From Baekduia sp. (lineage in GTDB: Bacteria > Actinomycetota > Thermoleophilia > Solirubrobacterales > Solirubrobacteraceae): 64,000 nucleotides of DNA. Below are positions 3,493-25,981 of this stretch, piece by piece. The first letter of the stretch is position 1, and the number at the start of each line of letters is the position of its first letter. The DNA lies in the NCBI GenBank assembly GCA_037045385.1, contig JBAOHN010000008.1, positions 754,481 to 818,480 of the forward strand. The letters run 5' to 3'. A program made the translations under genes and the position numbers. The notes beneath the pieces were generated by a model, which was not told where the DNA came from, made no database searches, and saw nothing but the letters and a program-made list of their open reading frames with translations.

Positions 3493-3502
3493 GCGCCCGA
3501 CG

Positions 3503-6629: not shown

Positions 6630-7251
6630 GCGCGTGGCTCCCGCGTGAAGCGCACGGTCATCCCCGGCTCGAGCAGCGCGGGGCGCTCGCGTTCCTGGTC
6701 GAACAGGACGGCGCCGGTCGTCCCGATCAGCCGCCAGCCTCCCGGCGACTCGCGTGGGTAGACGGCCGAGTACGGCCCGCCGAGGGCGACCGACCCGGCC
6801 GGGACCGACTGCCGCGGCGCGTCGAGGCGCGGCACGGCCAGCAGCGGATCGCCGCCGAGCAGATACGCGAACCCCGGCATGAAGCCGCAGAACGCGACCT
6901 CGTAGCTGGCGGCGACATGCCGCGCCACCACCTCCTCGGGCGACACGCCGGCGTGGGCGGCGACATCGGCCAGATCGGCACCGTCGTAGCGCACCGCGAT
7001 CTCGACCTCGCGTGCCCTGGGACTTTCTGTCGCTGAGCGAGAGAAACTCACATGGCACGCGTCGCGGATCGCTCCGATCGGCGGTGCCTGGGCGCTGAAG
7101 ACGAGCAGGACCGTCTCGTGGCCAGCTACGACATCGGTGAGCTGCGCGCCAAAAGCGGCACGGGCCGCGTCCGCGATCGCGTGCACGGCGGAGTGGCCAG
7201 CGGCCGGCTCGACCAGGACGGCGCGGTCACCGGCGGGGAGGACGGTGACGC

Positions 7252-7255
<4 letters not shown>
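6626..7255 (-). CDS. pxpB: 5-oxoprolinase subunit B (KipI family)
   Basis: ..FCGFMPGFAYL.. and ..GGPYSAVYP..SPGGW.. motifs. ATGA overlap with pxpA. Confidence 0.85.
7012..7058. repeat. 47-nt imperfect palindromic element, copy A (inside pxpB)
   Basis: GTGCCCTGGGACTTTCTGTCGCTGAGCGAGAGAAACTCACATGGCAC. The arms pair at about 18/22 positions. Same design as the copies at 28789 and 29710. Confidence 0.7.
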
Positions 7256-10798
<3,543 letters not shown>

Positions 10799-12613: not shown

Positions 12614-14047
12614 CTATGTTCCGCAGTAGGTCACGACGAGGTCACCCGGTGCGCCGGGTTCGGCGTAGCGCTCTCGCCCCGGCTTCTCGTCGAACGGTTG
12701 CGTGACGACCCTGAGCAGCTCGCTGAACGGGTCGACGTCACCGGCAGTCGCCGCAGCGAGAGCGTCCTCGACGAGGTGGCTGCGCGGGATGTAGACGGGG
12801 TTGACGCGGTCCATCAGGCCGGCGTCGGGCCCGGCCTCGACCCAGCCGCTCGCCCACTCCGCCAGCTCGGGTGGCGGCCGGTCCCCGCGCGCGACCGCCG
12901 ACAGCCCGCGCAGCGTGCCCGTGTAATCGAGCTCCTGCGCGCGCATCAGGTCGAGCAGGTCGCGGATCAGCTCCTCGCCCTCGGCGGGCGCGGTGGCAAG
13001 CCCGAGCTTGCGGTACATCCCGGCGCGCCAATGCGTGCCGAAGGTCTCGGCGAAGCGGTCCAGCTCGGCGGTCGCCGCCGCGACGGCCTGGTCCGTGTCG
13101 CCCGCGATCAGCGGCACCAACGTCTCGGCGAGCCGGGCGAGGTTCCACTGCGCGACGCTCGGCTGGGCGCCGTATGCGTAACGGCCACTGTGATCGATTG
13201 AGCTGAACACCACCTGCGGGTCGAAGCGGTCGATGAACGCGCACGGGCCGTAATCGATCGTCTCGCCGGAGATCGTCGTGTTGTCGGTGTTCATCACACC
13301 GTGGACGAAGCCGGCGCTCATCCAGAGCGCGACGAGCCGCGCCTGCACCTCGCAGACCGACCGCAGCAACGCGAGGTAGGGGTCCTCCGCATCCGCGGCC
13401 GAGGGGTGGTGGCGGTCGATCGCCTCGTCGGCGAGGCGACGGACTAGACCGGGGTCGTCGTTCCGGGCTGCGTACTCGAAGCTGCCGACGCGCAGATGGC
13501 TCGCCGCCACCCGGGTCAGCACCGCGCCGGGCAAGTCGCCCTGCTCGCGCGCTACCTGCTCGCCGGTGACACAGACGGCGAGCGAGCGCGTGGTCGGGAT
13601 CCCGAGCGCGTGCATCGCCTCGCTGACGAGGTACTCGCGCAGCATCGGGCCGATCACGGCACGGCCGTCGCCGCCCCGCGCGAACACGGTTCGGCCGGAG
13701 CCCTTGAGATGGACGTCGACCAGATCTCCCGCAGGTGTCCTCAGCTCGCCGAGCAGCACGGCGCGGCCGTCCCCGAGCCTCGGAACCGGCATCCCGAACT
13801 GGTGGCCTGCGTATGCCTGGGCCACGGGGTGTGCGCCCGGCGGCTCGGCCGCACCGCTCAGAACATCGACCGTCGACTGCTCCTGCAGGGTTGCCGGGTC
13901 GAGTCCGAGCTCGAGGGCAAGCGGCGCGTTGAGCACGACCAGCCGTGGATCAGGGCAGGCCGCAGGGTGCCACGGTGCGCTCAGCTCCGGGAACCGGTCG
14001 GCGAACCGGGTGCTGAGCGGGAGCGGAGTCGGGCCGGCGAACGGCAC
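12614..14047 (-). CDS. selO: protein adenylyltransferase SelO (YdiU family)
   Basis: AGHQFG motif and kinase-like core. Start set to the in-frame GTG at 14045-14047, because the track extension to 14266 is antisense to the neighbouring protease signal peptide. A TTG at 14128 is not excluded. Confidence 0.8.
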   Translation of the reverse strand: MPFAGPTPLPLSTRFADRFPELSAPWHPAACPDPRLVVLNAPLALELGLDPATLQEQSTVDVLSGAAEPPGAHPVAQAYAGHQFGMPVPRLGDGRAVLLGELRTPAGDLVDVHLKGSGRTVFARGGDGRAVIGPMLREYLVSEAMHALGIPTTRSLAVCVTGEQVAREQGDLPGAVLTRVAASHLRVGSFEYAARNDDPGLVRRLADEAIDRHHPSAADAEDPYLALLRSVCEVQARLVALWMSAGFVHGVMNTDNTTISGETIDYGPCAFIDRFDPQVVFSSIDHSGRYAYGAQPSVAQWNLARLAETLVPLIAGDTDQAVAAATAELDRFAETFGTHWRAGMYRKLGLATAPAEGEELIRDLLDLMRAQELDYTGTLRGLSAVARGDRPPPELAEWASGWVEAGPDAGLMDRVNPVYIPRSHLVEDALAAATAGDVDPFSELLRVVTQPFDEKPGRERYAEPGAPGDLVVTYCGT

Positions 14048-14069
14048 GTCCTCACGGTACCCGCGCGCC

Positions 14070-14098
14070 TTGTGGACGACGCGTCCCCGAGCTACGGT
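14070..14098 (+). promoter_or_regulatory. candidate promoter TTGTGG-17nt-TACGGT for protease gene 14133
   Basis: Identical -35 hexamer and 17-nt spacing as upstream of the paralog at 16058. The -10 fits the actinobacterial TAnnnT pattern. Confidence 0.45.
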
Positions 14099-14132
14099 GC
14101 TGTGACAACGAGATCCAAGGGGGATCAAGGGG

Positions 14133-14765
14133 ATGAAGAACCGTTCGAGGCTGCGCCGGGGCGCGGCTGTCACATTCGCGGCGGCGTTCGGCGCCGCCGC
14201 ACTACCGGCGGCAAGCTCGGCGACGTACGTCGCGCAGACCTGCGCCTTCAGCAAGAAGGCGTTCACCGTCGGCTTTTCCTACGGGTTTCCGAAGGCGTAC
14301 CGCCCGGGTCCCGAGGCGGCGATCGCCGACTGGAGCAACCGCACGAAGGTCGACATCACGCTCGTCGCCTCGGGTGCGCCGGCCGACGTCACGATCTCGT
14401 GGTACAGCCTCGATTACGTCTTCCCGGGAGCACCCGGCAATGCGACGGCGCTCGGCAGGATGTCGGCGCCCTGCCCCTCGAACGGGACGGCGTGGATCGT
14501 GGTCGATGCCGACAACAGCCCGGCCTACCAGCACACCCAGGGCCAGATGACCGCGGTCGTCGCCCACGAGCTGGGCCATGTGCTCGGGCTCGCCGACAAC
14601 AACCAGACGAACGGCTTCTGCGAGGCCAAGGAGGGGTCGGTGACGGTCCGCCGGGCGAGGCCCGCGAACCTGATGAGCCCGGCCGGATTCGTCGGCAACC
14701 AGACCTGCGGGCCAATGTTCGCCACGCAGGGCGAGGTCGACGCGGTCAACGCGCTCTACAAGTAG
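14133..14765 (+). CDS. small secreted zinc metalloprotease, snapalysin-like (HExxHxxGxxD)
   Basis: Signal peptide MKNRSRLRRGAAVTFAAAFGAAALPAASSA, HELGHVLGLAD, Met-turn-like ..NLMSP.., C-terminus ..EVDAVNALYK. Confidence 0.8.
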   Translation: MKNRSRLRRGAAVTFAAAFGAAALPAASSATYVAQTCAFSKKAFTVGFSYGFPKAYRPGPEAAIADWSNRTKVDITLVASGAPADVTISWYSLDYVFPGAPGNATALGRMSAPCPSNGTAWIVVDADNSPAYQHTQGQMTAVVAHELGHVLGLADNNQTNGFCEAKEGSVTVRRARPANLMSPAGFVGNQTCGPMFATQGEVDAVNALYK

Positions 14766-14766
14766 C

Positions 14767-15948
14767 TCAGGGCCGCAGGACGACCTTGAACCACTCGTCC
14801 TTGTCCTTCTGGAAGCGCTCGTAGGCGTCGGGAGCGTCCGCGAGCGGGACGTGATGGGTGGCGAAGTCCTCGACGCCGAGGACGTCGTCACCGGTCACGA
14901 GCGGGAGCAGGTCGTCGGTCCAGCGGCGCACGTTGGCCTGGCCCATTCGGATCGTCAGCTGCTTGTCGAACATCGTCATCATCGGCATCGGGTCGAGCAT
15001 CCCGCCGTAGACGCCGGAGATCGACAGCGTGCCGCCGCGGCGGACGAGCTCGATTGCGAGGTGCAGCGCTGCCATCCGGTCGACGCCGGCGTGATCCATC
15101 AGCGGCTTGGCGAGCGCGTCCGGCAGCAGCCCGACCATCTGGTGAGCGATCTTGCCGACCGGGGCGCCGTGCGCCTCCATTCCGACCGCTTCGAGCACGG
15201 AATCGGGCCCGCGACCGCCGGTCAGTTCGCGCACGTGGGCGACGATGTCATCGCCGGCGCTGAGGTCGAGTCCCGTCACCCCGAGCGCACGGGCGCGCTC
15301 GATCCGGCCCTCGACGAGGTCGATGCCGATCACGTTCTCGATCCCGCGGTGCAGCGCGATCCGGCAGGCCATCTGCCCGATCGGTCCGAGGCCGAGCACG
15401 ACCAGCGAGCCGCCGGCGGGAACGTTCGCGTACTCGACACCCTGCCACGCCGTCGGCATCACGTCCGACAGGAAGAGGAAGCGATCATCCGGCGGGCCTT
15501 CGGGGACCTTGACCGGGCCATAGCCCGCTTGCGGGATCCGCAGGTACTCGGCCTGGCCGCCGGGCACCTGGCCGTAGAGCTTCGTGTAGCCGAACAGGGC
15601 GGCACCGGAACCCTGCTCGTGGACCTGCGTCGTCTCGCACTGCGTCTGCAGGCCCTGGTCGCACATGAAGCAGTGGCCGCAGGAGATGTTGAACGGGACC
15701 ACGACGCGGTCGCCGACCCTCAGCTCGCCGGCCTCCGCACCGACCTCCTCGACGATGCCCATCGGCTCGTGGCCGAGGATGTCGCCGGCCTCCAGGTACG
15801 GGCCGAGCACCTCGTAGAGGTGGAGGTCTGAGCCGCACAGCCCGGTCGACGTGACGCGGATGATCGCGTCGGTCGGCTCCTCGATCCGCGGGTCGTCGAC
15901 CTCGTCGACGCGGACGTCGCGTTTGCCATGCCAGGTCAGTGCCTTCAT
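14767..15948 (-). CDS. zinc-dependent alcohol dehydrogenase (formaldehyde dehydrogenase-like)
   Basis: GHEPMGIVEEVG zinc signature, GLGPIG Rossmann motif, 393 aa. Confidence 0.85.
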   Translation of the reverse strand: MKALTWHGKRDVRVDEVDDPRIEEPTDAIIRVTSTGLCGSDLHLYEVLGPYLEAGDILGHEPMGIVEEVGAEAGELRVGDRVVVPFNISCGHCFMCDQGLQTQCETTQVHEQGSGAALFGYTKLYGQVPGGQAEYLRIPQAGYGPVKVPEGPPDDRFLFLSDVMPTAWQGVEYANVPAGGSLVVLGLGPIGQMACRIALHRGIENVIGIDLVEGRIERARALGVTGLDLSAGDDIVAHVRELTGGRGPDSVLEAVGMEAHGAPVGKIAHQMVGLLPDALAKPLMDHAGVDRMAALHLAIELVRRGGTLSISGVYGGMLDPMPMMTMFDKQLTIRMGQANVRRWTDDLLPLVTGDDVLGVEDFATHHVPLADAPDAYERFQKDKDEWFKVVLRP

Positions 15949-15991
15949 CGCCGGGGTATCCCCGGCCGCGGCCCGGCTGAATCAGAGCAAG

Positions 15992-16020
15992 TTGTGGGAT
16001 TGCCGATGCCTGGTTACGCT
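15992..16020 (+). promoter_or_regulatory. candidate promoter TTGTGG-17nt-TACGCT for protease gene 16058
   Basis: Same architecture as 14070-14098, followed by the conserved leader TGTGACA..CCAA(A)GGGGGAT. Confidence 0.45.
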
Positions 16021-16057
16021 CGTGTGACATCCAGGGGTCCAAAGGGGGATTTGAGAA

Positions 16058-16660
16058 ATGAAGAACCATTCGAGGCTGCGGCGGACCGCTGCCGTCACGT
16101 TCGCGATGACGGTCGGCGCTGCGGCTGTTCCGGCGGCAAGCTCGGCTGCCTGTCCGTTTCCGAAACTGGACTTGACCTGGGCGCGCGGCGTAGGTCTGAC
16201 CGACATGATGATCTGGAACACGACGGTCGCGATGAACGACTGGTCGGCCAGGACGAAGGTCAACATCACGGAGATCGGAGACCAGGCGAGGGCCGACATC
16301 GTCGTCAGCGCGGCCGATGTTCAGGTCTGGCCGATCGGGCAACCTGCGAACGTGAACGCGGTCACGGCACAGAAATGCCAGAACGGCAAGTCCGTCGGCC
16401 AGAAGACGATCGCGTTCGACAACAACCGTCCCGAGGTCTTCGGCTTCAACGACCGGGCACGTCGAACCGCGGCTCACGAGGTCGGGCACGCGCTCGGGCT
16501 CGAGGACAACAACCGGACGGAAGGGACGTGTGGGCCCGGCATCCCGAGGAACGTCACGATCATGACGATTCCTGCCAGTTACACGCCCAACGGCGGAGTC
16601 TGCGGTCCGACTCTCGCGGCGACCGACGACATCAACGGCGTCAACGCGATCTACAAGTAG
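16058..16660 (+). CDS. small secreted zinc metalloprotease, snapalysin-like (HExxHxxGxxD)
   Basis: Signal peptide MKNHSRLRRTAAVTFAMTVGAAAVPAASSA, HEVGHALGLED, ..VTIMT.., C-terminus ..DDINGVNAIYK. Confidence 0.8.
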   Translation: MKNHSRLRRTAAVTFAMTVGAAAVPAASSAACPFPKLDLTWARGVGLTDMMIWNTTVAMNDWSARTKVNITEIGDQARADIVVSAADVQVWPIGQPANVNAVTAQKCQNGKSVGQKTIAFDNNRPEVFGFNDRARRTAAHEVGHALGLEDNNRTEGTCGPGIPRNVTIMTIPASYTPNGGVCGPTLAATDDINGVNAIYK

Positions 16661-17220
16661 CCGGCTCGCGCGCCCGCGAGCAGCGCGCGCGTGATCGCTA
16701 CGACCTCGTCCCCGGACGGCTCGTCGCCGGCGACGAGCGACGGCCAGACCAGCGACATGCCGACATGGACAACCGAGCGCGCCGCTGCAGCGGCGCGCTC
16801 GGCGTCCTCCGGCATCGCTTCGGCGATCAGCTCGCGGACGTGGCGTTCGAGTTCCGACCGCGGTCCGCGTTCCTTGCCGACGAGCAGCCGCAGCGCGACC
16901 TCGGGCTCGCGGACCACGAAGTCGCGTAGCGACTCGACGGCGACCGCCTGCGTCACGAGCGAGCGGACCACGCTGACGACGAGGGCCTCACCGCGGCCGC
17001 GGGCTGCCGATCGCGCCTCGGCGAAGTACTCGCTGCTGAGCTCGCAGAGGACGCCGTCGATCAGATCCTCACGCGTTCCGTACCAGCGGTGGAGCGTGGT
17101 GCGGCCGATCCCGAGCTCGGCGGCGATCGCGCCCATGTCGATCCGCCGGCCATCCATGAACGCCTCGCGGGCGGCGGCCAGCGCGTCGGCGGCGACCGGT
17201 CTGCGGATCGTCTCGGCCAT
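16651..17220 (-). CDS. TetR family transcriptional regulator
   Basis: HTH ..MGAIAAELGIGRTTLHRWYGTRE.. ATG at 17218-17220 chosen. Divergent from the P450 gene. Confidence 0.8.
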   Translation of the reverse strand: MAETIRRPVAADALAAAREAFMDGRRIDMGAIAAELGIGRTTLHRWYGTREDLIDGVLCELSSEYFAEARSAARGRGEALVVSVVRSLVTQAVAVESLRDFVVREPEVALRLLVGKERGPRSELERHVRELIAEAMPEDAERAAAAARSVVHVGMSLVWPSLVAGDEPSGDEVVAITRALLAGARAGYL

Positions 17221-17261
17221 GACTTGGGACAGTCTCGCACAACGCCCCGAATGAAACAAAC

Positions 17262-17291
17262 TTGACATATGTTCCAGCGACGTGCGACTAT
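17262..17291 (+). promoter_or_regulatory. candidate promoter (TTGACA -35, GACTAT-like -10) and 8-bp palindrome ACATATGT; possible TetR operator
   Basis: TTGACA at 17262-17267. TAnnnT-like hexamer about 18 nt downstream, ending about 7 nt before the ATG at 17298. Confidence 0.3.
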
Positions 17292-17297
17292 CGCGGC

Positions 17298-18527
17298 ATG
17301 CCGCAGCTCGCCGACCGCCCCGTCAGCCAGATCGACCTCGGAGACCTCGAGCTCTGGGAGGGCGGGTTCCCGCACGACGTCTTCGATCGCATCAGGCGCG
17401 AGGACCCGGTCCACTGGAGCCCGATGGACAGCTGGCCCGGCGAGCCGGGCTTCTGGTCGATCACCCGACCTGAGGACATCCACGAGATCAGCCGCCGCTG
17501 GCAGGACTTCTCCTCGCAACGCGGCGGCATCGTGTTCACCGATCACGGCACGCCGATCGAGCTGCAGACGCAGATGTTCATCGCGATGGACCCGCCGCGC
17601 CACGACCGCATCAAGGCGCTGTTCCAGCGCGGCTTCACGCCGAAGCGGATCGGCGAGCACGAGCAGCGGATCCGCGAGATCGTGACGACGGTCCTCGACC
17701 GGCTCGAAGGCCGTGACGAGATCGACCTCGTCACCGAGCTGGCGACGCCGGTCGTCAGCCGCGTGATCGGCAGCTTCGTCGGCACGCCGGAGAAGGACGA
17801 CGCTGCCTGGTCTGAGTTCGCCCTGCGCGCGATGGCGTTCGGAGACGAGGACCTTCAGCCCGGCGGCATCGAGACCGTGATGCAGCAGATCCACAAGGCG
17901 TTCGAGGACGGCGGCAAGCTCGTCGCCGAGCGCCGCGAGCAGCCGGCCGATGACCTCACGAGCCTGCTCGTCACCGCCGAGGTCGACGGCGAGGGCCTCA
18001 GCGACGACGAGATCATCATGGGCTTCGCGCTGCTCCAGCTGGCCGGCAACGACAGCACCAAGGCGACCTTCACGAACGGCATGGTCGCGCTGCTCGAGAA
18101 CCGCGAGCAGTGGGACAAACTCGTCGCCGAACCGTCGCGGGCCGAGGTCGCGACCGAGGAGCTGCTGCGCTGGGCGCCCGCGTTCTCGCACTTCCGCCGC
18201 ACCGCGACCCGAGACGTCGAACTGCACGGCAAGCAGATCCGCGAGGGCGACAAGGTCGTCATGTGGTACCCGGCATCGAACCGCGACGAGGCGACGTACG
18301 AGTGCCCGCACCGCTTCGACATCGATCGTGGCGCCGACCACCAGGCGTTCGGCGCCGGCGGCCGCCACTTCTGCCTCGGCACGGCGCTCGCCCGGCTCGA
18401 AATCCGGGTCCTGCTCGAGGAGACCGCGAAGCGTTTCCCGGAGATGACGCTCGCCGCGCCGCCGGTGCCGATCCGGTCGCTGTTCCTCAACCAGCAGCGA
18501 GAGATCCGCGTGGCGCTCAGGGCCTGA
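17298..18527 (+). CDS. cytochrome P450
   Basis: Heme-binding loop FGAGGRHFCLG, EELLRW (ExxR). Start ATG at 17298 (the track TTG at 17262 is also possible). Confidence 0.9.
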   Translation: MPQLADRPVSQIDLGDLELWEGGFPHDVFDRIRREDPVHWSPMDSWPGEPGFWSITRPEDIHEISRRWQDFSSQRGGIVFTDHGTPIELQTQMFIAMDPPRHDRIKALFQRGFTPKRIGEHEQRIREIVTTVLDRLEGRDEIDLVTELATPVVSRVIGSFVGTPEKDDAAWSEFALRAMAFGDEDLQPGGIETVMQQIHKAFEDGGKLVAERREQPADDLTSLLVTAEVDGEGLSDDEIIMGFALLQLAGNDSTKATFTNGMVALLENREQWDKLVAEPSRAEVATEELLRWAPAFSHFRRTATRDVELHGKQIREGDKVVMWYPASNRDEATYECPHRFDIDRGADHQAFGAGGRHFCLGTALARLEIRVLLEETAKRFPEMTLAAPPVPIRSLFLNQQREIRVALRA

Positions 18528-19236
18528 TCGCCAGGAACACGAACGCGAGCGCCAGCGCGAGGTGAACGGCGCCCTGCTGCACCGTGGCGCGCCCGGGCAG
18601 CACCGTCAACGCGCCGACGAGCGCGCTGATCGTCAGCAGCACGATCTGCGTCTCGCCGAGGCCGAGCAGCAGCGGCCCGTCGAGCCAGATCGACGCGATC
18701 GCGATCGCCGGGATCGTCAGGCCGAGCGATGCCACGGCAGCGAACGCGAGCTGGGCCGGTGCGAACTCCGCGCCCGGACGGCTTGTCGTGAACGACGGCA
18801 GGACGAGCGTCAGTGTCGCGAGCGTCGCGACGCTCGTCAGCGCGGTCGCCGCACCCTCGGAGTTGAACTCGGCCTGGCCGTCACGGAGCGCGGCGACGAG
18901 CACCGACAGCCCGACGATGCCGTTGAGCGTGATCATCACCGCGGCGAAGACGGTGTCCCGGGCGAGCGTGTCGGCGGCCGGTCCGCCGGCGGTCATCAGC
19001 GCGACGATCAACCCGACCTCGATCACCGTGACCGCGACCGCGAGCACCAGTGAGCCGTACGGCTCGCCGGCGCGGTGGGCGATGAGCTCGGCGTGCTGGA
19101 CTGCGGCGACGACGCTCGTGGCGAGCAGGAGTCCGCCGAACACCAGCACCAGCGTCCCCGGCTTGCCGCCCCACGTCAGCGCGACGGCGGCGGCCCCGGC
19201 GAGCGGCGTCCAGGTCGTCCATGAGCGGAGCAGCAT
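18517..19236 (-). CDS. CaCA-family (Ca2+/H+ antiporter-like) membrane protein, unusually short
   Basis: Hydrophobic 239-aa ORF resembling ChaA/y4hA-type ionic transporters (..GEPYGSLVLAVAVTVIEV.., ..GLTIPAIAIAS..). Confidence 0.55.
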   Translation of the reverse strand: MLLRSWTTWTPLAGAAAVALTWGGKPGTLVLVFGGLLLATSVVAAVQHAELIAHRAGEPYGSLVLAVAVTVIEVGLIVALMTAGGPAADTLARDTVFAAVMITLNGIVGLSVLVAALRDGQAEFNSEGAATALTSVATLATLTLVLPSFTTSRPGAEFAPAQLAFAAVASLGLTIPAIAIASIWLDGPLLLGLGETQIVLLTISALVGALTVLPGRATVQQGAVHLALALAFVFLAIRP

Positions 19237-19273
19237 CCGCGGGGGAGGCTACCCCCGCGGACCGCCCGCTCGC

Positions 19274-19717
19274 TCAGGTCTCGGTTGTCGTCGTACTCGT
19301 CCCGGTCGGCGGGGTCGTCTGCTGCGGGACGGTTCCCTGCGGCGGGTTCGGCGGTGGGCCGTAACCGTTCGGCGGAGCGCCGCCCGGGCCGCCCTGGCGG
19401 CTGCCGTCCGGCCGGCTCGGCAGGTACTTGCGGCATGCCTTGAACGCCGCCTGCTGCTCCTCGGTCATCTGGGCCGGGCCGCCGCTGCTGGTTCCCGGCG
19501 GCTGGGCGCTCACGCCCCGGTTCTTCAGGCACGCTTCGAACTTCGCCATCTGCGCGCTGCTCTGGGTGGTGCCCGCCCGGTTCTGGCTCCCGCTCGCGGC
19601 AGCGGGCGGCGCCGAGCCGGTCGTGCCGCCGACCGAAGTGCCGCATGCCGCGAGCGGCAGCGTGCAGGCGACGGCGAGCGCCGCCAAAGCGTTCGTTCTC
19701 ATCAGCCGTCGGTGCAT
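19274..19717 (-). CDS. Pro-rich lipoprotein, hypothetical
   Basis: Lipobox-like ..TLPLAAC-G after the basic N-terminus MHRRLMRTNALAALAVA. Confidence 0.55.
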   Translation of the reverse strand: MHRRLMRTNALAALAVACTLPLAACGTSVGGTTGSAPPAAASGSQNRAGTTQSSAQMAKFEACLKNRGVSAQPPGTSSGGPAQMTEEQQAAFKACRKYLPSRPDGSRQGGPGGAPPNGYGPPPNPPQGTVPQQTTPPTGTSTTTTET

Positions 19718-19846
19718 GCCGGGAGGGAACCGCGCAACCCTGGGACGACGCCGAGACCCGGGCCAGAGATCGCCGAGAGGACGCGGGCGTGCGCGCGCCT
19801 GCCAGAAGCGTTACCGTGCCCGCGGCGCTCCCCGCCGCCCCCTGGC

Positions 19847-20953
19847 ATGGAAAGCGATCTGATCCTCATCGTTGTGGTCTGCGCGGCGCTCGCGTTCGAC
19901 TTCACCAACGGCTTCCACGACACCGCCAACGTCGTCGCCACGGCGATCTCGACACGAGCGATGCCGCCGAAGGTCGCGATCGCCGGCGCGGCGATCCTCA
20001 ACTTCGTCGGCGCGTTCCTTTCGCTCGAGGTCGCGGCGGTCGTCGCCAAGGGCGTCGTCGACGCCGAGATCATCACGATGAACATCGTCTTCGCCGGCCT
20101 GATCGGGGCGATCGTATGGAACATCGCGACTTGGTACGTGGGCCTGCCGTCGAGCTCCTCGCACGCGCTGATCGGGGGGCTCGTCGGTGCCGCGTTCTTC
20201 GCCAACGGGCCTGACGCGGTCCTCGGCGACGGCATCCTCAACAAGGTCCTGATCCCGGCGTTGCTCTCACCGGTGCTCGCGTTCGCGGTCGCCGGAGCGT
20301 CGGTGCTGATCTTCTACCGGGCACTCGGTCGCCGCCGGCCCGGCCCGGTCAACCGCGGTTTCCGTCTCGGCCAGGTGATCTCCGGGGGACTGCTCGCGAT
20401 CGCGCACGGCACCAACGACGGCCAGAAGACGATGGGCATCATCGCGCTCGCGCTGATCGCCCACGGCAGCCTCGGGCCGAATGCCGATCCGCCGACGTGG
20501 GTGATCGTCTCGGCGGCGACCGCGCTCGCCGCCGGCACCTGGGTCGGTGGCTGGCGGATCATCAACACGCTCGGCAACCGGATTCACAAGATGGACGCGG
20601 CGCAGGGCTTCGCCGCGCAATCAGGCGGCGCGGTCGTGATCCTGACGGCATCCCATCTCGGCTTCCCGCTGTCGACCACCCACACGATCTCCGGCGGCGT
20701 GATCGGCTCGGGCGCCGCGAAGAGCATCTCGACCGTCAAGTGGGGCGTCGCCGGCAACATGCTCGCCGCCTGGGTGCTGACGCTGCCGGCGGCCGGCCTG
20801 ACCGCCGGTGCCGTCTACGGGTTCACGCGCCTCTTCGGCGAGGGTGCCGCCGGTCCCGTGATCGTCTCTGCGATCGCGGTCGTGCTGCTCGCAGCCGCGT
20901 TCGTTCGCCGCGGCCGCGCCGGCCGCCCGACGACGATGGCGGCGCCGTCGTGA
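19847..20953 (+). CDS. pit: inorganic phosphate transporter (PiT family)
   Basis: NGFHDTANVVAT and HGTNDGQKTMG motifs. ATG at 19847 lies within a much longer spurious track ORF. Confidence 0.9.
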   Translation: MESDLILIVVVCAALAFDFTNGFHDTANVVATAISTRAMPPKVAIAGAAILNFVGAFLSLEVAAVVAKGVVDAEIITMNIVFAGLIGAIVWNIATWYVGLPSSSSHALIGGLVGAAFFANGPDAVLGDGILNKVLIPALLSPVLAFAVAGASVLIFYRALGRRRPGPVNRGFRLGQVISGGLLAIAHGTNDGQKTMGIIALALIAHGSLGPNADPPTWVIVSAATALAAGTWVGGWRIINTLGNRIHKMDAAQGFAAQSGGAVVILTASHLGFPLSTTHTISGGVIGSGAAKSISTVKWGVAGNMLAAWVLTLPAAGLTAGAVYGFTRLFGEGAAGPVIVSAIAVVLLAAAFVRRGRAGRPTTMAAPS

Positions 20954-21186
20954 CCGCCGTCGTCGACTTCCACGCGCTGTTCGAGGTCGTGTACGTCTCG
21001 CTGGCCCTGGGTCTGCTCGTCGCCGTGACGTTCTCGGCGATCCTTTACGGGGCGATCCGGTCGATGGACCTTCGGCGCGAGGGTCACGGTGCTGCGGCCG
21101 TCGGGCTCGCGTTCGTTGCCGCCGTCGCTGCAACCGGGTTGGCGGCGATCGTCGTCTACGGCTTCAACGTCATCACCACCAAATGA
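20950..21186 (+). CDS. small two-helix membrane protein (hypothetical), coupled to pit
   Basis: The GTG start overlaps the pit stop (GTGA at 20950-20953). 78 aa with two hydrophobic segments. Confidence 0.4.
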   Translation: MTAVVDFHALFEVVYVSLALGLLVAVTFSAILYGAIRSMDLRREGHGAAAVGLAFVAAVAATGLAAIVVYGFNVITTK

Positions 21187-21202
21187 CCAGAGGACACCTG
21201 TC

Positions 21203-21829
21203 ATGAGTCGTTTCTCGGAGATCTTCGTCTCGAAGGACCGCGCCTACTTCGACCTGTTCGAAGCAGCGGCGACGAACATGGCGCACGCCGCCGAGATGCT
21301 GAGCACGATGCTCGCCGACTACCCCGACAAGAAGCACCTCGTCGACGACATCCGCGCGACCGAGTCGGCTGGCGACAGCATCACGCATGATTTGATCAAC
21401 CGGCTGAACAACACGTTCGTGACGCCGATCGACCGCGAGGACATCATCGAGCTGGCGTCGTCGCTGGATGACATCACCGACTTCATCGAGGAGGTCGCCG
21501 ACTACCTCGGCCTCTACAAGATCGAGGCGCCGATGGAGCAGGCGCAGCGGCTCGCAGTGATCCTCCACCAGGCGGCGATCCAGATCGAGAAGGCGATGCC
21601 GCGGCTGCGCGACTTCAAGGACATGGACAAGTACACGGTCGAGATCCACCGGCTCGAGAACGAGGGCGACAAGGTTGTCCGCGAGGGGCTCGCCTCGCTG
21701 TTCGAGGGCGGGATCGACCCGATGGTCGTGATCCGCTGGAAGGACCTGTTCGGCCGGCTCGAAGAGGCGATCGACGCCTGCGAGCGGGTCGCGAACATCC
21801 TCAGCGGGATCGTGATCCGCAACAGCTAG
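21203..21829 (+). CDS. DUF47 (PhoU-like, Pit accessory) protein
   Basis: ..TPIDREDI..SLDDITD..LENEGD.. typical of the DUF47/YkaA family. ATG at 21203. Confidence 0.85.
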   Translation: MSRFSEIFVSKDRAYFDLFEAAATNMAHAAEMLSTMLADYPDKKHLVDDIRATESAGDSITHDLINRLNNTFVTPIDREDIIELASSLDDITDFIEEVADYLGLYKIEAPMEQAQRLAVILHQAAIQIEKAMPRLRDFKDMDKYTVEIHRLENEGDKVVREGLASLFEGGIDPMVVIRWKDLFGRLEEAIDACERVANILSGIVIRNS

Positions 21830-21897
21830 TTCCGGGTCGTGACCGAGAAGCGACGAGCCGCAGCGTCGCGAGATGCGAAGCACAACGACCCGCTCGA

Positions 21898-21969
21898 TGG
21901 GCGCGGCGGGTTTCGAACCTGCGACCTCTCGCGTGTGAAGCGAGCGCTCTCCCACTGAGCTACGCGCCC
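21898..21969 (-). tRNA. tRNA-Val: tRNA-Val (anticodon CAC)
   Basis: Folded by hand: GGGCGCG-TA-GCTC-AGTGGGA-GAGC-G-CTCGC-TTCACAC-GCGAG-AGGTC-GCAGG-TTCGAAA-CCCGC-CGCGCCC-A. There is one A-C mismatch in the T stem. CCA is not encoded. Confidence 0.85.
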
Positions 21970-21986
21970 TCAGGGTGCGGTGAAGC

Positions 21987-23633
21987 CTAGCGAGGCCCGT
22001 TGTCGCGGGCGCGGCCGGACTTCTCGGCGTACATCGCCCTGTCGGCGGCGACGAACGCCTCGTCGGCGCTGCTCGTCGCCTGCTCGATCGTGGCGACGCC
22101 GATGCTCGCCGTGACGCTGAGGTGCCTGCCGGCGGTCGCGACGCTGGTCGCCGCGATCGCGTCCCGGAGCTCGGCGGCGATCTGCTCGGCTTCCGGGCGG
22201 CTCACGTTCGCGAGCAGGACGGCGAACTCGTCGCCGCCGATCCGCGCGAGCGCGTCGCCGTCGCGGAGCCGCGCCCGTAGCCGGCCGCCGATCGCGTGTA
22301 GCAGCTTGTCGCCAGCCTGGTGCCCGGCGGTGTCGTTGACCGGCTTGAATCCGTTGAGGTCGAGGACCAGCAACGCCGCCCGCTCGTCGTAGCGTTGCGC
22401 GCGGGCAACCTGGCGGCTGAGCTCCTCGTCGAACCGGCGCCGGTTCCAGAGCCCGGTCAGCGGGTCGTGGTCGGCGAGGTGGTGCAGGGTCGCCTCGAGA
22501 CGCTTGCGGTCGGAGACGTCGGTCGTCTGCGAGACGAAATACAGCGGCCTGCCGCCGCTCGCCCGGACGAGTGCGATCGAGACGACGACCCAGATCTGCT
22601 CGCCGCGCTTGTTCCGATAGCGCTTCTCCATCGAGCATCGCTCGATCTCGCCGGCGAGCAGGCGCCCCACTGCGCGCTGCGTGCTCTCGATGTCCTCCGG
22701 GTCGGTCAGGTCGGTGAAGCCGCGCGTGAGTAGCTCCTCCTCGCTGTAGCCGGTGATCTGGCAGAGCGCCTGGTTGACACGCTGCCAGCGCCCGTCGAGC
22801 CCGACGATCGCCATCCCTCGCGGGGCCTCGTCGAACGCGACTTCGAACAGCTGCTCGGCGGTCTCGGCGGCAACGCGATCGGTGATGTCGCGCGCGACCA
22901 CGTGGAGGTCGGCGACCTCGCCGTTGGGGCCGGTACGGGGGTGGGCGACGCTCTCGACGAGGACCGTCGATCCGTCCGGCCGCCGCATTCTGTGCCGGCC
23001 GGAGAGGGTGTCGGTGCTGGCCGCGATCGCCGTCCGGGCCTCGTCTGTGTCCGGCAGGTCTTGGGGATGGAAGAGCTCGTACGCGGACCGTCCGACGAGC
23101 TCCTCGGGCTCATACCCGAGCAGCCGCCGGCACGCGGGCGAGATGTAGAGGATCGTCCCGTCGGGCGCGATCCGCGCGATCACGTCGAACGCGTCCTCGG
23201 TCAGGTACCGGTAATGCTCCTCGCGGGCCGCGAGCTCGGCCTGCGCCCGGCGCTCGGCGGTGACGTCGCGCGAGACCGCGATGCCGCCGAGGACGGCGCC
23301 GTCGTCGTCGCGCAGCGGCGAGAACTCCGTCACGAAGACGAACCGCTCGTCGGCGCTGACGACCTCGATGCTCGTCGTTTCGCCGCGGAGCGCCGACTCG
23401 TAGCGCGGTGCGTAGCGGTCGAACATGGGTGCCGGCAGGACGTCACGGATGTCGCGACCGGTGATCGTGCTGGGGTCGAATCCGCTGGCGGTGAGCGGCT
23501 TACCGGCCGCCGCGACGATCGTCAGGTCGTGGTCGAACACGACGACGGAGGTGCTCGGGAGCGACTCGAAGACGGACCAGGCCAGACGGCCGGAGGCGAT
23601 CAGGTCGGCGAGTGAGGAATGGGATACGGGCAC
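21987..23633 (-). CDS. PAS-domain diguanylate cyclase (GGDEF)
   Basis: Three PAS-like segments followed by ..RIGGDEFAVLL.. GTG start. Confidence 0.85.
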   Translation of the reverse strand: MPVSHSSLADLIASGRLAWSVFESLPSTSVVVFDHDLTIVAAAGKPLTASGFDPSTITGRDIRDVLPAPMFDRYAPRYESALRGETTSIEVVSADERFVFVTEFSPLRDDDGAVLGGIAVSRDVTAERRAQAELAAREEHYRYLTEDAFDVIARIAPDGTILYISPACRRLLGYEPEELVGRSAYELFHPQDLPDTDEARTAIAASTDTLSGRHRMRRPDGSTVLVESVAHPRTGPNGEVADLHVVARDITDRVAAETAEQLFEVAFDEAPRGMAIVGLDGRWQRVNQALCQITGYSEEELLTRGFTDLTDPEDIESTQRAVGRLLAGEIERCSMEKRYRNKRGEQIWVVVSIALVRASGGRPLYFVSQTTDVSDRKRLEATLHHLADHDPLTGLWNRRRFDEELSRQVARAQRYDERAALLVLDLNGFKPVNDTAGHQAGDKLLHAIGGRLRARLRDGDALARIGGDEFAVLLANVSRPEAEQIAAELRDAIAATSVATAGRHLSVTASIGVATIEQATSSADEAFVAADRAMYAEKSGRARDNGPR

Positions 23634-23757
23634 GCGGATTCCGGAGAAGGGACTGTGGGCTGCATCGGCGCCGGCCGGGCGGCGCTCAAGGCCGTTCTAT
23701 GACCACGCTCAGGAAAGCGCCGCTCGTTGCGGTGAATCCGGCACTAGACTCGCGCCT

Positions 23758-23865
23758 GGTTCCCGGGCGCGGCCCGTGTGACGCCGGCTCGTGAATCAGG
23801 TCAGGTCCGGAAGGAAGCAGCCTTAAGCGATTCCCGGCGGGTGCGCAGCGGTCGCGTCCGGGGCC
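23758..23865 (+). ncRNA. ffs: signal recognition particle RNA (small 4.5S type)
   Basis: The core CAGGTCAGGTCCGGAAGGAAGCAGCC (23797-23822) matches the E. coli 4.5S domain IV / GGAA tetraloop region as I recall it. The flanks pair into one long imperfect hairpin, followed by GTCTTTCTTT. Ends are approximate. Confidence 0.8.
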
Positions 23866-23938
23866 GTCTTTCTTTGCGTCCGGCCCTTGTCGCGCAGTAG
23901 GTTTCCCGCGCTCGTAAACGAACAAGGGGACGGGGAGA

Positions 23939-24556
23939 ATGAAGATGAGATCGATGCGGCGCAGGGCCGCAGCGGTTGGGTTTGCCTGTGCGATCGGAGC
24001 CGCCGCTGTGCCGGCGACGAGTTCGGCGTCGTGCCGCGCCTTCTCCAAGAAGGATCTGGTGATCGGGTGGGACACCAACATCGGCGCCTACATGCGTGGC
24101 CATGTCGATGCGGCAGCGGCGGTGTGGGACGCGAAGACGAATGTCAATTTCACCAATTCGCCTGAACTGGCCACGGTCGACGTGCGCGTGCGGATGATGG
24201 ACATCCAGGCCTGGCCGTTCTCCCAGGCGGCGAACGTCTGGGGCTTCACGACTTGGCCGTGCAACGCTGCCGGCGGGGGCAACGGGCAGTCGGTCGTCTA
24301 CCTCGACACGCAGTACGTCGCTGTCATGACCGGCGCGAAACGAGATGTCTGGGCGCGGAACCTCGCGGCACACGAGATCGGACATGCGATCGGACTCGAC
24401 CACAACCAGGCCAGCTCCGGGAAATGTGCCGACGGAACGGCGAAGCCGACGACCGTCATGTACGACCCCATCGTCAAGTACTCGAACGGCGGCATATGCG
24501 GCTTCTACGAGCCGACGACGGACGACATCAACGCCGTCAACGCGCTCTACAAGTAG
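23939..24556 (+). CDS. small secreted zinc metalloprotease, metzincin-type (HExxHxxGxxH)
   Basis: Signal peptide ..AAAVGFACAIGAAAVPATSSA, HEIGHAIGLDH, ..TTVMYDP.., C-terminus ..DDINAVNALYK. Confidence 0.8.
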   Translation: MKMRSMRRRAAAVGFACAIGAAAVPATSSASCRAFSKKDLVIGWDTNIGAYMRGHVDAAAAVWDAKTNVNFTNSPELATVDVRVRMMDIQAWPFSQAANVWGFTTWPCNAAGGGNGQSVVYLDTQYVAVMTGAKRDVWARNLAAHEIGHAIGLDHNQASSGKCADGTAKPTTVMYDPIVKYSNGGICGFYEPTTDDINAVNALYK

Positions 24557-24662
24557 CGGTCGCGCCGATCCGGGCGCAGGTCGTCGGAACGGAATGCGGT
24601 GTAAGGTGGCCCTCGCACAGGTGCTCGCAGGGGGCGACGCCGCTTCCTGACAGGGGACCACA

Positions 24663-25274
24663 ATGAGGATCAGACGCGCCGCTCAGGCGATGGCGCTCGC
24701 AACCGGCCTGGCGGCAGCGATGCCCGCCGCTTCCGGTGCTGCGGTGCCGTACAACGGTTGCAAGTGGCCGAAGCGGACGTTGACGTACGGCGTCAGCAGC
24801 AACGTGCCGGCGAACGTCAAGTGGTACATCGGCGAGGCGGCGAACGCCTGGACGAACGCGACCGTGATCAACTTCAACGTCGGCGACTGGGCGACGGCGA
24901 ACGTCAGGGTCCAGGTCGACGACATCCAGTCGGCGCGATGGGGCGTGACCAGCCCGACCGCAGGTGCCGTGACCCGCACCACGTGTCCCGGCGGCAAGAC
25001 GTCGGTCGCGGAGGTCGTGTTCGACCGCGAGTGGCTCGCGCGCAACCCGATCCAAGACGATCTCCGGCTCGGATCGGTGCACGAGTTCGGGCACTCGCTC
25101 GGCCTTGCGCACAACAACCTCGCCTCGGGCAACTGCTTCAGCAGCGCCCGGCCGGTCTCGGTCATGTCCGAGTTCCCCTCGATCCACAACGGCGTGATCT
25201 GCGGTCCGGTCTGGCCTTCGCAGACCGACATTGACGGCATCAACTCGCTGTACAACGGCACGCCCTGCTCCTGA
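24663..25274 (+). CDS. small secreted zinc metalloprotease, metzincin-type (HExxHxxGxxH)
   Basis: Signal peptide ..LATGLAAAMPAASGA, HEFGHSLGLAH, ..VSVMSEF.., ..TDIDGINSLY.. Confidence 0.8.
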   Translation: MRIRRAAQAMALATGLAAAMPAASGAAVPYNGCKWPKRTLTYGVSSNVPANVKWYIGEAANAWTNATVINFNVGDWATANVRVQVDDIQSARWGVTSPTAGAVTRTTCPGGKTSVAEVVFDREWLARNPIQDDLRLGSVHEFGHSLGLAHNNLASGNCFSSARPVSVMSEFPSIHNGVICGPVWPSQTDIDGINSLYNGTPCS

Positions 25275-25369
25275 GTCCGAGTGCGCGGGGCTGGGTTGAC
25301 GAGGTGTCAACGCCGCCCTACCCTTCAGCGACGCCGGTGGGGAGCCGGCACTCAACCCAGGGGGATTCG

Positions 25370-25981
25370 TTGTCCAGCAAGACCACGCGCGCCTGCGTCG
25401 CCGCAGCCGCTACCGCGACCGTCGTCGCCGCACTGCCCGCCGCCGCCGAGGCCGCGCCGACGCCGTCCATCGGCTGCAAGCTCGGCGGCGCGAACCAGAC
25501 CTGGAACTACAACTCCTACGGAATCGGCCGCAACATGTCGGCCGTGTACGCGGCGGCCGAGGCGGCGTCGATGTGGTCGAACGCGACCGACATCAATTTC
25601 ACGATTGCCAACTACGGCTACAAGGTCAACGTCGACATGATCGACCTCCAGGCGTGGCCGTACAGCCGGGCTGCCAACGTCGCGGGCTTGGTGCCCGGTG
25701 GCATCTGCTCGAACGGAGTCCGGCAGGGCGAGGTGGCGGTGCTCGGCGACACCGAGTACTTCAACCGCGCCAGCTACGACATGATGAAGCAGGTGATGCT
25801 GCACGAGTTCGGCCACGCGATCGGGCTCGGGCACAACGACGCGACCTCGGGCGAGTGCAGCCCCGGTGTCCCGAAGCCGGTCTCGGTGATGCACTCGCGG
25901 ATCGAGTCGCAGGTCAGCGCGACGTGCGGCCCGCTCGCCCCGGCGGCCGACGACATCACGACCGTCAACAACCTCTACTGA
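25370..25981 (+). CDS. small secreted zinc metalloprotease, metzincin-type (HExxHxxGxxH)
   Basis: HEFGHAIGLGH, ..VSVMHSR.., ..DDITTVNNLY. TTG at 25370 (after SD-like CAGGGGGA) gives a normal signal peptide. The track start is GTG at 25304. Confidence 0.75.
   Translation: MSSKTTRACVAAAATATVVAALPAAAEAAPTPSIGCKLGGANQTWNYNSYGIGRNMSAVYAAAEAASMWSNATDINFTIANYGYKVNVDMIDLQAWPYSRAANVAGLVPGGICSNGVRQGEVAVLGDTEYFNRASYDMMKQVMLHEFGHAIGLGHNDATSGECSPGVPKPVSVMHSRIESQVSATCGPLAPAADDITTVNNLY

What the first reader, a model, noticed from the sequence alone, without database searches (positions are those of the whole stretch)
14133..25981. Five-member family of small secreted metzincin/snapalysin-like proteases, with the third zinc ligand switching between Asp and His
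Five ORFs of about 200 aa (14133, 16058, 23939, 24663, 25370) share four features: a signal peptide, an HExxHxxGxx[D/H] site, a Met-turn-like ..(V/I/L)M.. and a C-terminal ..D(I/V)xx(V/I)NxLY.

Two have HExxHxxGxxD (HELGHVLGLAD, HEVGHALGLED). This is the ligand arrangement known for snapalysin (family M7). Three have the canonical metzincin His (HEIGHAIGLDH, HEFGHSLGLAH, HEFGHAIGLGH).

Finding both ligand types within one clearly paralogous family in one locus is unusual. It is useful for understanding the Asp/His switch.
Basis: partly seen in the sequence, partly recalled or inferred. Interest (0 to 1): 0.6.

Follow-up and report, generated by a model that had tools for sequence, protein, structure and literature searches.

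The report
Five small secreted zinc protease genes
A soil or freshwater actinobacterium carries five related genes for small secreted zinc proteases of the matrixin type; two have swapped one of the three zinc-holding residues from histidine to aspartate, a swap that turns out to recur in about a tenth of this protein family.

Summary
Five + strand genes of 200-210 aa encode paralogues that are 31-44% identical. Each has a signal peptide, an HExxHxxGxx[D/H] motif, a Met-turn Met and a C-terminal helix motif. Copies 1 and 2 have Asp (GAC) at the third zinc-ligand position; copies 3-5 have His (CAC).

The reading is only partly supported.
- All five pass the Pfam Peptidase_M10 (matrixin) threshold. 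Their snapalysin (M7) matches do not extend beyond the motif.
- AlphaFold models of an Asp copy and a His copy both resemble MMP and karilysin catalytic domains most closely.
- The proteins form a distinct matrixin-like subfamily. They have no prodomain, no histidines for the MMP structural-zinc site, four conserved cysteines and a long connector before the Met-turn.

The His/Asp mix is real but not exceptional.
- Among 103 small relatives, 7 have Asp and 3 have Glu, in several independent lineages.
- An archaeal locus carries a mixed His/Glu cluster.
- ADAMDEC1 is a published His-to-Asp precedent within a metzincin family.

Copies 1 and 2 group together in the best tree, with moderate support. 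The simplest account is therefore one CAC-to-GAC change in their common ancestor. They keep every other conserved residue, so they are probably active proteases with a modified zinc site. Interest is modest.

The parts
14133..14765 (+). c1: Asp-type matrixin-like protease, 210 aa, HELGHVLGLAD, Met-turn M181, Cys 37/114/163/192
   Evidence: ORF. PF00413 31.5 bits against a cut-off of 24. AF2 model with pLDDT 83 and an MMP-like fold. Residue positions.
16058..16660 (+). c2: Asp-type matrixin-like protease, 200 aa, HEVGHALGLED. The only His residues in the mature protein are the two of HExxH.
   Evidence: (26.2 bits).
23939..24556 (+). c3: His-type copy, 205 aa, HEIGHAIGLDH. First gene of the c3-c4-c5 tandem, directly downstream of the SRP RNA gene.
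   Evidence: (37.4 bits). AF2 model with pLDDT 87 and an MMP/karilysin-like fold.
24663..25274 (+). c4: His-type copy, 203 aa, HEFGHSLGLAH. The Pfam match starts at residue 34 (profile position 1), right after the signal peptide.
   Evidence: 43.5 bits.
25370..25981 (+). c5: His-type copy, 203 aa from TTG 25370 (the longest ORF starts at GTG 25304), HEFGHAIGLGH
   Evidence: 27.5 bits; ribosome-binding site. Orthologue-like partner P0006, support 97/97.
14595..14597 (+). c1 third-ligand codon GAC (Asp155)
   Evidence: It aligns with the third zinc-binding His of MMP-1 in the profile alignment.
16505..16507 (+). c2 third-ligand codon GAC (Asp150)
24401..24403 (+). c3 third-ligand codon CAC (His155)
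25110..25112 (+). c4 third-ligand codon CAC (His150)
25832..25834 (+). c5 third-ligand codon CAC (His155)
14070..14132 (+). c1 promoter-like TTGTGG-17-TACGGT, conserved leader and AAGGGGGAT ribosome-binding site, shared with c2
   Evidence: Alignment and sequence print. The consensus sigma-70 scan found nothing, so this is promoter-like by similarity between the two copies only.
15992..16057 (+). c2 promoter-like TTGTGG-17-TACGCT, leader and ribosome-binding site, paralogous to the c1 upstream region

Best explanation
The five genes encode exported single-domain zinc endopeptidases of the metzincin clan. Each has a signal peptide of about 30 residues and a mature chain of about 170 residues. 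They belong to the matrixin (Pfam PF00413, MEROPS M10-like) superfamily.

They form a bacterial subfamily with these features:
- No prodomain or cysteine switch.
- No MMP-type structural zinc site.
- Four conserved cysteines, which probably form two disulfides after export (inferred).
- A connector of 18-26 residues between the third ligand and the Met-turn.

The set arose by old duplications. c5 and c3 have closer relatives in metagenomes than in their own genome. It now sits as two solo genes (c1, c2), each with its own copied promoter-like region, and one tandem (c3-c5) between the SRP RNA gene and dnaX.

In the lineage leading to c1 and c2, one CAC-to-GAC transversion replaced the third zinc-binding His with Asp. 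The Asp carboxylate most likely still holds the catalytic zinc together with the two HExxH histidines, and the Glu acts as general base, as in snapalysin and ADAMDEC1. The Asp copies are therefore probably active proteases with altered zinc affinity, activity level or inhibitor sensitivity, rather than dead genes.

The likely role of the whole set is extracellular protein breakdown for nutrition.

Shown: paralogy, family assignment, fold, ligand states and recurrence of the switch. Inferred: zinc binding by Asp, activity, disulfides, export route and physiological role.
For: Family and fold:
- All five exceed the PF00413 cut-off.
- A profile of the five hits MMP-1/3/13, serralysin and karilysin in the PDB at E 4e-11 to 1e-8. 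Asp155 aligns to the third His of MMP-1.
- AF2 models of c1 (pLDDT 83) and c3 (pLDDT 87) have the same architecture. Their best Foldseek hits are MMP-8/1/13/3 and karilysin, with TM-scores of 0.66-0.71 normalised to the target.

The Asp copies are intact:
- c1 and c2 keep HExxH, Gly, the Met-turn Met, Trp67, all four Cys and the C-terminal N..Y.
- GC3 is 0.84-0.91.
- Mature c2 has no other His that could act as third ligand.

Asp-type proteins are stably maintained elsewhere:
- P0016 is found with an identical sequence on 17 contigs from several samples, and P0011 on 13.
- Asp- and Glu-type proteins score 68-77 bits on PF00413.

Origin of the switch:
- c1 and c2 group together in the best tree, with support 79/87, even with signal peptides and the ligand column removed.
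- They also share upstream DNA.

Precedent: Asp is an accepted third ligand in snapalysins, thuringilysins and igalysins (PMC12237041). ADAMDEC1 (H362D) is proteolytically active and escapes TIMP1-3 (PMC5174729).
Against: - No zinc-site geometry could be measured, because model coordinates were not readable. No metal was modelled.
- c1 has the longest branch of the five (1.66 against 0.54 for c3). It also has Glu in place of the 97%-conserved Asp of the C-terminal helix and an extra insertion in the connector. These could reflect relaxed constraint.
- Support for the c1+c2 clade is only moderate. A wider Asp clade including P0011 is not rejected (p-AU 0.38), so the timing and number of His-to-Asp events is not settled.
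- The only other sampled strain differs by 1 base in 927, so no selection test was possible.
Confidence: 0.7

Rival explanations
1. The two Asp copies are catalytically impaired or dead pseudo-proteases. They could be decaying duplicates or binding proteins, and the Asp marks loss of the zinc site.
For: c1 has a long branch, the D201E change and an insertion in the connector. The ADAMDEC1 paper title cited in 15 papers speaks of 'dampened proteolytic activity'.
Against: - All other catalytic and structural residues are retained in both copies: the HExxH Glu, Gly, Met-turn and 4 Cys.
- The frames are intact with high GC3.
- Each copy has its own conserved promoter-like region and ribosome-binding site.
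- c2 has an ordinary branch length.
- Asp-type relatives are conserved in many samples.
- Asp is a working ligand in other metzincins.
Confidence: 0.13
2. c1 and c2 are snapalysin (M7) family members and c3-c5 are matrixins. On this view the five share only clan-level similarity.
For: c1 and c2 have the HExxHxxGxxD motif. The snapalysin structure 4hx3 is rank 15 in the fold search for c1, with a target-normalised TM-score of 0.68.
Against: - PF02031 and NF033628 scores are far below their cut-offs and cover the motif only.
- c2 against the PDB finds no snapalysin at E<=10.
- c2 is 42-44% identical to c3 over the full length.
- All five share the same four Cys and the same connector.
Confidence: 0.02
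3. The family assignment is as in the best explanation, but Asp arose differently. Either it arose twice independently in c1 and c2, or it is older than the local duplication, coming from an Asp lineage shared with metagenomic relatives such as P0011.
For: - The c1+c2 clade has only 79/87 support.
- c2's nearest sequence by identity is c3 (His), not c1.
- P0011 (Asp) has c2 as its nearest sequence, at 34%.
- A c1+c2+P0011 clade is not rejected, p-AU 0.38.
- The switch is demonstrably recurrent in the family.
Against: The best ML tree joins c1 and c2 in both analyses. They also share upstream and leader DNA and a near-identical signal peptide. One change is more parsimonious than two.
Confidence: 0.15

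Closest known systems
Matrixins: MMP catalytic domains and bacterial karilysin (MEROPS M10A, Pfam PF00413)
   Same: - Best sequence-profile family for all five copies.
- Best fold matches.
- The catalytic domain starts with a K/R-W-x-x-x-x-L-T-Y-like strand (c4 KWPKRTLTYGV).
- HExxHxxGxxH in c3-c5, a Met-turn and a C-terminal DDIxxVNxLY helix like the MMP DDIDGIQAIY.
   Different: - No propeptide or cysteine switch.
- No histidines available for the MMP structural-zinc site. Mature c2 has only the two HExxH histidines.
- Four conserved cysteines.
- A connector of about 30 profile positions between motif and C-terminal helix, where MMP-1 has 13 residues.
- Asn rather than Ser follows the third ligand.
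- Asp replaces the third His in c1 and c2.
Snapalysin (Streptomyces small neutral protease, MEROPS M7, Pfam PF02031)
   Same: It is a small secreted actinobacterial metzincin with the HExxHxxGxxD zinc site, as in c1 and c2. The overall fold is similar (4hx3, target-normalised TM-score 0.68 with c1).
   Different: The profile scores are below their cut-offs and restricted to the motif. There is no sequence hit in the PDB for c2. c3-c5 have His. The four-Cys pattern and long connector are not features captured by the M7 models.
Serralysins (MEROPS M10B)
   Same: The PDB profile alignment runs continuously through the connector and C-terminal helix (query 52-205 against serralysin 81-246). The spacing between third ligand and Met-turn is therefore of similar length.
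   Different: NF035945 scores 13-24 bits against a cut-off of 500. There is no RTX beta-roll domain and no type I secretion. These proteins have N-terminal signal peptides and are only about 200 aa long.
ADAMDEC1 (decysin-1), the one mammalian ADAM with HEXXHXXGXXD
   Same: A His-to-Asp replacement of the third zinc ligand inside an otherwise His-type metzincin family, arising after gene duplication. The protein is still proteolytically active, and its inhibitor sensitivity is changed (PMC5174729, PMC4885070).
   Different: It belongs to a different metzincin family (M12B) and is a eukaryotic multidomain protein. No biochemical data exist for the proteins here.

Membership tests
Metzincin clan (MA(M)) | Extended zinc motif HExxHxxGxx[H/D] followed by a conserved Met-turn | tested here: met
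   The motif is present in all five. The Met column is 94% conserved in 98 relatives and present in all five.
Pfam PF00413 Peptidase_M10 (matrixin) | Score at or above the curated gathering threshold (24 bits) | tested here: met
   31.5, 26.2, 37.4, 43.5 and 27.5 bits for c1-c5. Confirmed on the genome.
Matrixins sensu stricto (M10A) | Third catalytic zinc ligand is His (HExxHxxGxxH) | tested here: not met
   Met in c3-c5. Not met in c1 and c2, which have Asp (GAC codons).
Matrixins sensu stricto (M10A) | Structural zinc (three His plus one Asp) and calcium sites in the loop between strands III and IV | tested here: not met
   Mature c2 has no His outside HExxH. c1 has one (H134), and c3-c5 have one extra each. 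That is too few for a 3-His site. The ligand set is taken from general knowledge and PMC12587646.
Matrixins sensu stricto (M10A) | N-terminal propeptide with a cysteine switch | tested here: not met
   The Pfam catalytic-domain match starts 0-7 residues after the predicted signal-peptide cleavage site, for example c4 residue 34 = profile position 1. There is no room for a prodomain.
Matrixins sensu stricto (M10A) | MMP catalytic-domain fold | tested here: met
   Foldseek top hits for both models are MMP-8/1/13/3 and karilysin, E 3e-8 to 5e-8, target-normalised TM-score 0.66-0.71.
Snapalysin (M7) | Match to PF02031 / NF033628 above the curated cut-off | tested here: not met
   PF02031 scores 17.2 bits against 25, for c1 only. 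NF033628 scores 21.9 and 11.9 bits against 300, over residues 133-158 only. The PF02031 genome search found nothing, but its controls did not ring, so that search is uninformative.
Snapalysin (M7) | Asp as third zinc ligand (HExxHxxGxxD) | tested here: inconclusive
   The motif is present in c1 and c2 and absent in c3-c5. Actual coordination by Asp was not testable, because no coordinates were available.
Serralysin (M10B) | NF035945 match above cut-off and a C-terminal RTX beta-roll domain | tested here: not met
   13-24 bits against 500. The proteins end at the catalytic-domain C-terminal helix.

The most novel reading that the evidence does not exclude
The third zinc ligand of prokaryotic matrixin-like proteases is evolutionarily labile. 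His, Asp and Glu interchange repeatedly, in about 10% of small family members, and the change tends to occur in one duplicate of a paralogue set (here, and in the archaeal locus L096). On this reading the swap is a recurrent route to functional divergence, for example in metal affinity, activity level or escape from protease inhibitors. This five-gene set, with mature proteins of about 170 aa that are almost His-free, would be a minimal natural system to measure what the swap does. Published PF00413 phylogenies removed all non-canonical motifs before analysis (PMC12587646), so this variation is essentially unstudied.
Probability: 0.3. Interest if true: 0.5.

Novelty: new variant of a known kind. 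Interest (0 to 1): 0.3.

Why it matters
If the Asp copies are active, this locus offers matched natural paralogues from one genome and one scaffold of about 170 residues. They have no prodomain and no second metal site. They could be used to measure how His versus Asp at the third ligand changes zinc affinity, catalysis and inhibitor binding. So far that question has been addressed mainly in the single mammalian case, ADAMDEC1.

The survey also shows that Asp and Glu variants are a regular minority within the matrixin family. Motif-based filters therefore discard real family members. Beyond that, the genes are ordinary secreted proteases of an uncultured soil or freshwater actinobacterium.

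Tried and rejected
- The search for homologous proteins with c1 alone found only c1 itself. With alignment A3 it was swamped by more distant matrixins.
It worked with A5.
- Model coordinates are not exposed, so no zinc-site distances or disulfide geometry could be measured.
- A dN/dS test against the only near-identical strain (L036) was impossible: 1 difference in 927 nt.
- A test for gene conversion at the 5' ends was uninformative. c1/c2 show 80% identity over the first 93 nt against 70% for the rest, and the background for this GC content is 60-75%.
- The sigma-70 consensus scan found no promoter, and no terminators separate c3, c4 and c5.
- The snapalysin membership hypothesis was rejected.
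- The hypothesis that all five copies are a species-specific burst was rejected: AU p=0.0016 against a single clade.
- A Zur-box or other zinc-regulation idea for the c1/c2 promoters was considered, but no AT-rich palindrome is present in the conserved leader (read by eye). It was not pursued.
- Lipoprotein and Tat export readings were considered. The Cys right after SSAA/SSAS in c2 and c3 is loosely lipobox-like. However, that Cys is 88% conserved together with three others in relatives where it lies 4-7 residues after the cleavage site, which favours a disulfide. An RR pair is conserved in the signal peptides, but no Tat-signal model matched.


Full report
**1. What is there**

- c1, 14133-14765
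- c2, 16058-16660
- c3, 23939-24556
- c4, 24663-25274

The proteins are 200-210 aa and 31-44% identical in pairs. A profile of the five finds exactly these five places in the 2.94-Mb genome, at E 1e-84 to 1e-93, and nothing else. GC3 of 0.84-0.95 fits real genes in a 70% GC genome.

The zinc motifs are as reported: HELGHVLGLAD and HEVGHALGLED in c1 and c2, and HEIGHAIGLDH, HEFGHSLGLAH and HEFGHAIGLGH in c3-c5. The third-ligand codons are GAC against CAC, one transversion apart. The Met proposed as the Met-turn lies in a column that is 94% Met among relatives.

The N-termini look like signal peptides: a basic start, an Ala-rich core and an SSA/GAA/EAA cleavage motif. The structure models give them pLDDT below 50. 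No dedicated predictor was available.

**2. Which family**

All five exceed the gathering threshold of Pfam PF00413, Peptidase_M10 or matrixin, with 26-43 bits against 24 (confirmed on the genome). The snapalysin models fail. PF02031 gives 17 bits against 25, for c1 only. NF033628 gives 12-22 bits against 300, over about 20-26 residues around the motif.

A profile of the five against all PDB sequences gives MMP-1, -3, -11, -13 and -8, serralysin and karilysin at E 4e-11 to 1e-7. The Asp/His column aligns with the third zinc-binding His of MMP-1. The Asp-type c2 on its own hits only MMPs and karilysin, plus chance malate dehydrogenases. Snapalysin does not appear even at E<=10.

The outcome is the opposite: they are one family, but that family is M10-like, not M7.

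**3. Fold and anatomy**

AlphaFold2 models were built with a 22-sequence family alignment. They are confident: c1 has mean pLDDT 83.4 and c3 has 87.0, with cores above 90. Both show the same order of elements:
- a strand and helix
- three more strands
- the long active-site helix carrying HExxH
- a beta-hairpin connector
- the C-terminal helix

Foldseek against the PDB ranks MMP-8, -1, -13, -3 and karilysin first for both models (E 3e-8 to 5e-8, target-normalised TM-score 0.66-0.71). Snapalysin (4hx3) appears at rank 15 for c1 with a similar TM-score (0.68) and is not in the top 50 for c3. By fold, the proteins therefore resemble minimal metzincins generally, and MMPs slightly more than snapalysin.

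They differ from true matrixins in several ways:
- The catalytic domain begins 0-7 residues after the signal peptide, so there is no prodomain or cysteine switch.
- Mature c2 has no histidine apart from the two in HExxH, and the other copies have one extra each besides the motif histidines. The three-His structural zinc site of MMPs therefore cannot exist.
- Four cysteines are conserved in 85-88% of small relatives and in all five copies. They most likely form two disulfides (inferred).
- The stretch between the motif and the C-terminal helix spans about 30 profile positions where MMP-1 has 13 residues. The serralysin alignments, by contrast, run through it.

**4. Distribution and origin**

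The family is very patchy.
- Of 24 same-genus genomes, only two have any relative: G019, a His-type at 92 bits, and G015, which is weak.
- In 401 genomes of the class, only remote and mostly multidomain relatives appear, at under 60 bits against about 200-240 for the window's own copies.
- Across one genome for each of 185,579 species, the best matches are 25-35% identical. They are scattered over Nocardioides, Actinacidiphila, Dormiibacterota, Chloroflexota, Frankia, Thermoactinomycetaceae, Paenibacillus, Bacillus and others.
- The exhaustive search of 1.84 billion representatives gave 2121 hits at E<=1e-3 but only 7 at E<=1e-30. Five of these are the window's own proteins or a near-identical strain. 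The other two are P0006 and P0007.

In the trees, c5 pairs with P0006 (support 97/97) and c3 with P0007. A single clade of all five window copies is rejected (AU p=0.0016). The duplications are therefore older than this species, and uncultured relatives carry orthologues. The P0007 contig also encodes a PAS-GGDEF protein that is 55% identical to c3's neighbour.

An aquatic-metagenome contig (L036) carries c1 with 1 difference in 927 nt.

c3-c5 lie between the SRP RNA gene (23765-23862) and dnaX. In same-order genomes this interval is either empty or filled with other genes. In six congeners the SRP RNA gene is not near dnaX at all.

**5. The ligand switch in context**

Among 103 small (150-240 aa) family members, the third position is His in 93, Asp in 7 and Glu in 3. 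HExxH is invariant.

On a maximum-likelihood tree the state changes at least 9 times by parsimony. Many branches are weak, but several departures from His are well supported:
- P0016 (Asp) is nested in a His clade, with support 100/100 and 98/86.
- P0137 (Asp) and P0111 (Glu) are sisters, with support 99/94.
- P0091 (Asp) is sister to P0089 (His).

Independently of any tree, most non-His sequences have a His-type sequence as their nearest relative.

Among larger multidomain hits, 15 of 47 motifs end in Asp. Several Asp or Glu proteins are unambiguous PF00413 members, at 68-77 bits over the full profile. P0016 and P0011 (both Asp) occur with identical sequence on 17 and 13 contigs from several samples, so Asp-type genes are stably maintained.

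One archaeal locus (L096, a Methanimicrococcus MAG) holds three paralogues, two with Glu and one with His. This is a second mixed cluster.

In the literature, Asp is described as the rare alternative typical of whole families: snapalysins, thuringilysins and igalysins (PMC12237041). ADAMDEC1 is the known within-family exception. It is active and escapes TIMP inhibition (PMC5174729, PMC4885070). A 2025 phylogeny of PF00413 discarded every sequence lacking the canonical HEXXHXXGXXH (PMC12587646), which explains why this variation has gone unremarked.

**6. How it most likely works**

c1 and c2 join in the best tree in both analyses: SH-aLRT 88 in the first, and 79/87 in the second, with signal peptides and the ligand column excluded. 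They also share promoter-like, leader and signal-peptide sequence. One CAC-to-GAC change in their common ancestor is the simplest history.

Two independent changes remain possible. So does an older Asp lineage that includes P0011, which the AU test does not reject (p-AU 0.38).

Both Asp copies keep every other conserved catalytic and structural residue. In c2 no other His is available. The Asp carboxylate is therefore the only plausible third protein ligand. Given the precedents, I infer that the Asp copies are active zinc endopeptidases with a modified metal site.

The longer branch of c1, its D201E change and its connector insertion leave room for relaxed constraint in that copy.

The biological role is inferred from the class of enzyme only: extracellular proteolysis for nutrition. 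The absence of an adjacent inhibitor, chaperone or transporter gene was judged by inspecting the ORFs and was not tested with profiles.

**7. Verdict**

The snapalysin label is wrong, and the claimed rarity is overstated.

What remains of interest is modest. This is an uncharacterised matrixin-like subfamily with no prodomain and four conserved cysteines, in which the third ligand varies among paralogues. There is also evidence that such variation recurs across prokaryotic M10-like proteases.

The organism is called Baekduia in earlier notes of this scan. I did not verify that name.

Noticed in passing
L096:2723-7608 (MAG Candidatus Methanimicrococcus odontotermitis, JAITUZ010000059.1): Three small matrixin-like protease genes: two with Glu and one with His at the third ligand position. 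Each is followed by a paralogous companion ORF of about 230-260 aa (3361-4140, 5134-5922, 6922-7608). These could be protease plus partner (inhibitor or chaperone) modules in an archaeon.
   Followed up: partly
window 23765-23862 (+); L044, L045: The SRP RNA gene sits directly upstream of c3. Only the small-SRP Rfam model rings here, whereas same-order genomes have a 256-nt large SRP RNA next to dnaX (G031) or 2.6 kb from it (G025). Six same-genus genomes have no SRP RNA within 4 kb of dnaX. The ffs-dnaX interval is a variable spot.
   Followed up: partly
window 14133-14225, 16058-16150, 23939-24031, 24663-24740; alignment A3: An Arg-Arg pair is conserved in the signal peptides of most family members (RRGAAV, RRTAAV, RRAAAV, RRAAQA). 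This raises the possibility of Tat export of a folded metalloprotease. No Tat-signal model matched in the Pfam and NCBIfam scans.
   Followed up: no
window 14070-14132 and 15992-16057: c1 and c2 share a TTGTGG-17-TACG(G/C)T promoter-like element and a conserved leader containing TGTGACA before the ribosome-binding site. The duplication copied the regulatory region. The conserved leader could be an operator.
   Followed up: partly
L046:1-5800 and L050:10992-16600 (JGI metagenome 3300009870): The two best-sampled Asp-type relatives (P0016, P0011) both lie a few kb from integrase / AAA_25 / HTH gene islands (integrated elements) in contigs of the same metagenome. This may be coincidence or a hint of mobility.
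   Followed up: no
window 25260-25274 (c4 C-terminus): c4 ends in an extra ..NGTPCS tail with a fifth Cys. Similar Cys-containing tails (..VPCS..CPIPCSC..PLNCCA) occur in relatives P0008, P0010 and P0009. Their function is unknown.
   Followed up: no
window 12614-14266 (-): The longest SelO-like ORF on the minus strand overlaps the c1 start by about 130 nt. Its true start is probably further downstream, which leaves a divergent intergenic region that holds the c1 promoter-like element.
   Followed up: no
G000:C9:98558-98659 (-): A sixth, sub-threshold PF00413 hit (23 bits, motif region only) lies inside a 690-aa open frame on another contig. It is probably an unrelated larger zincin.
   Followed up: no
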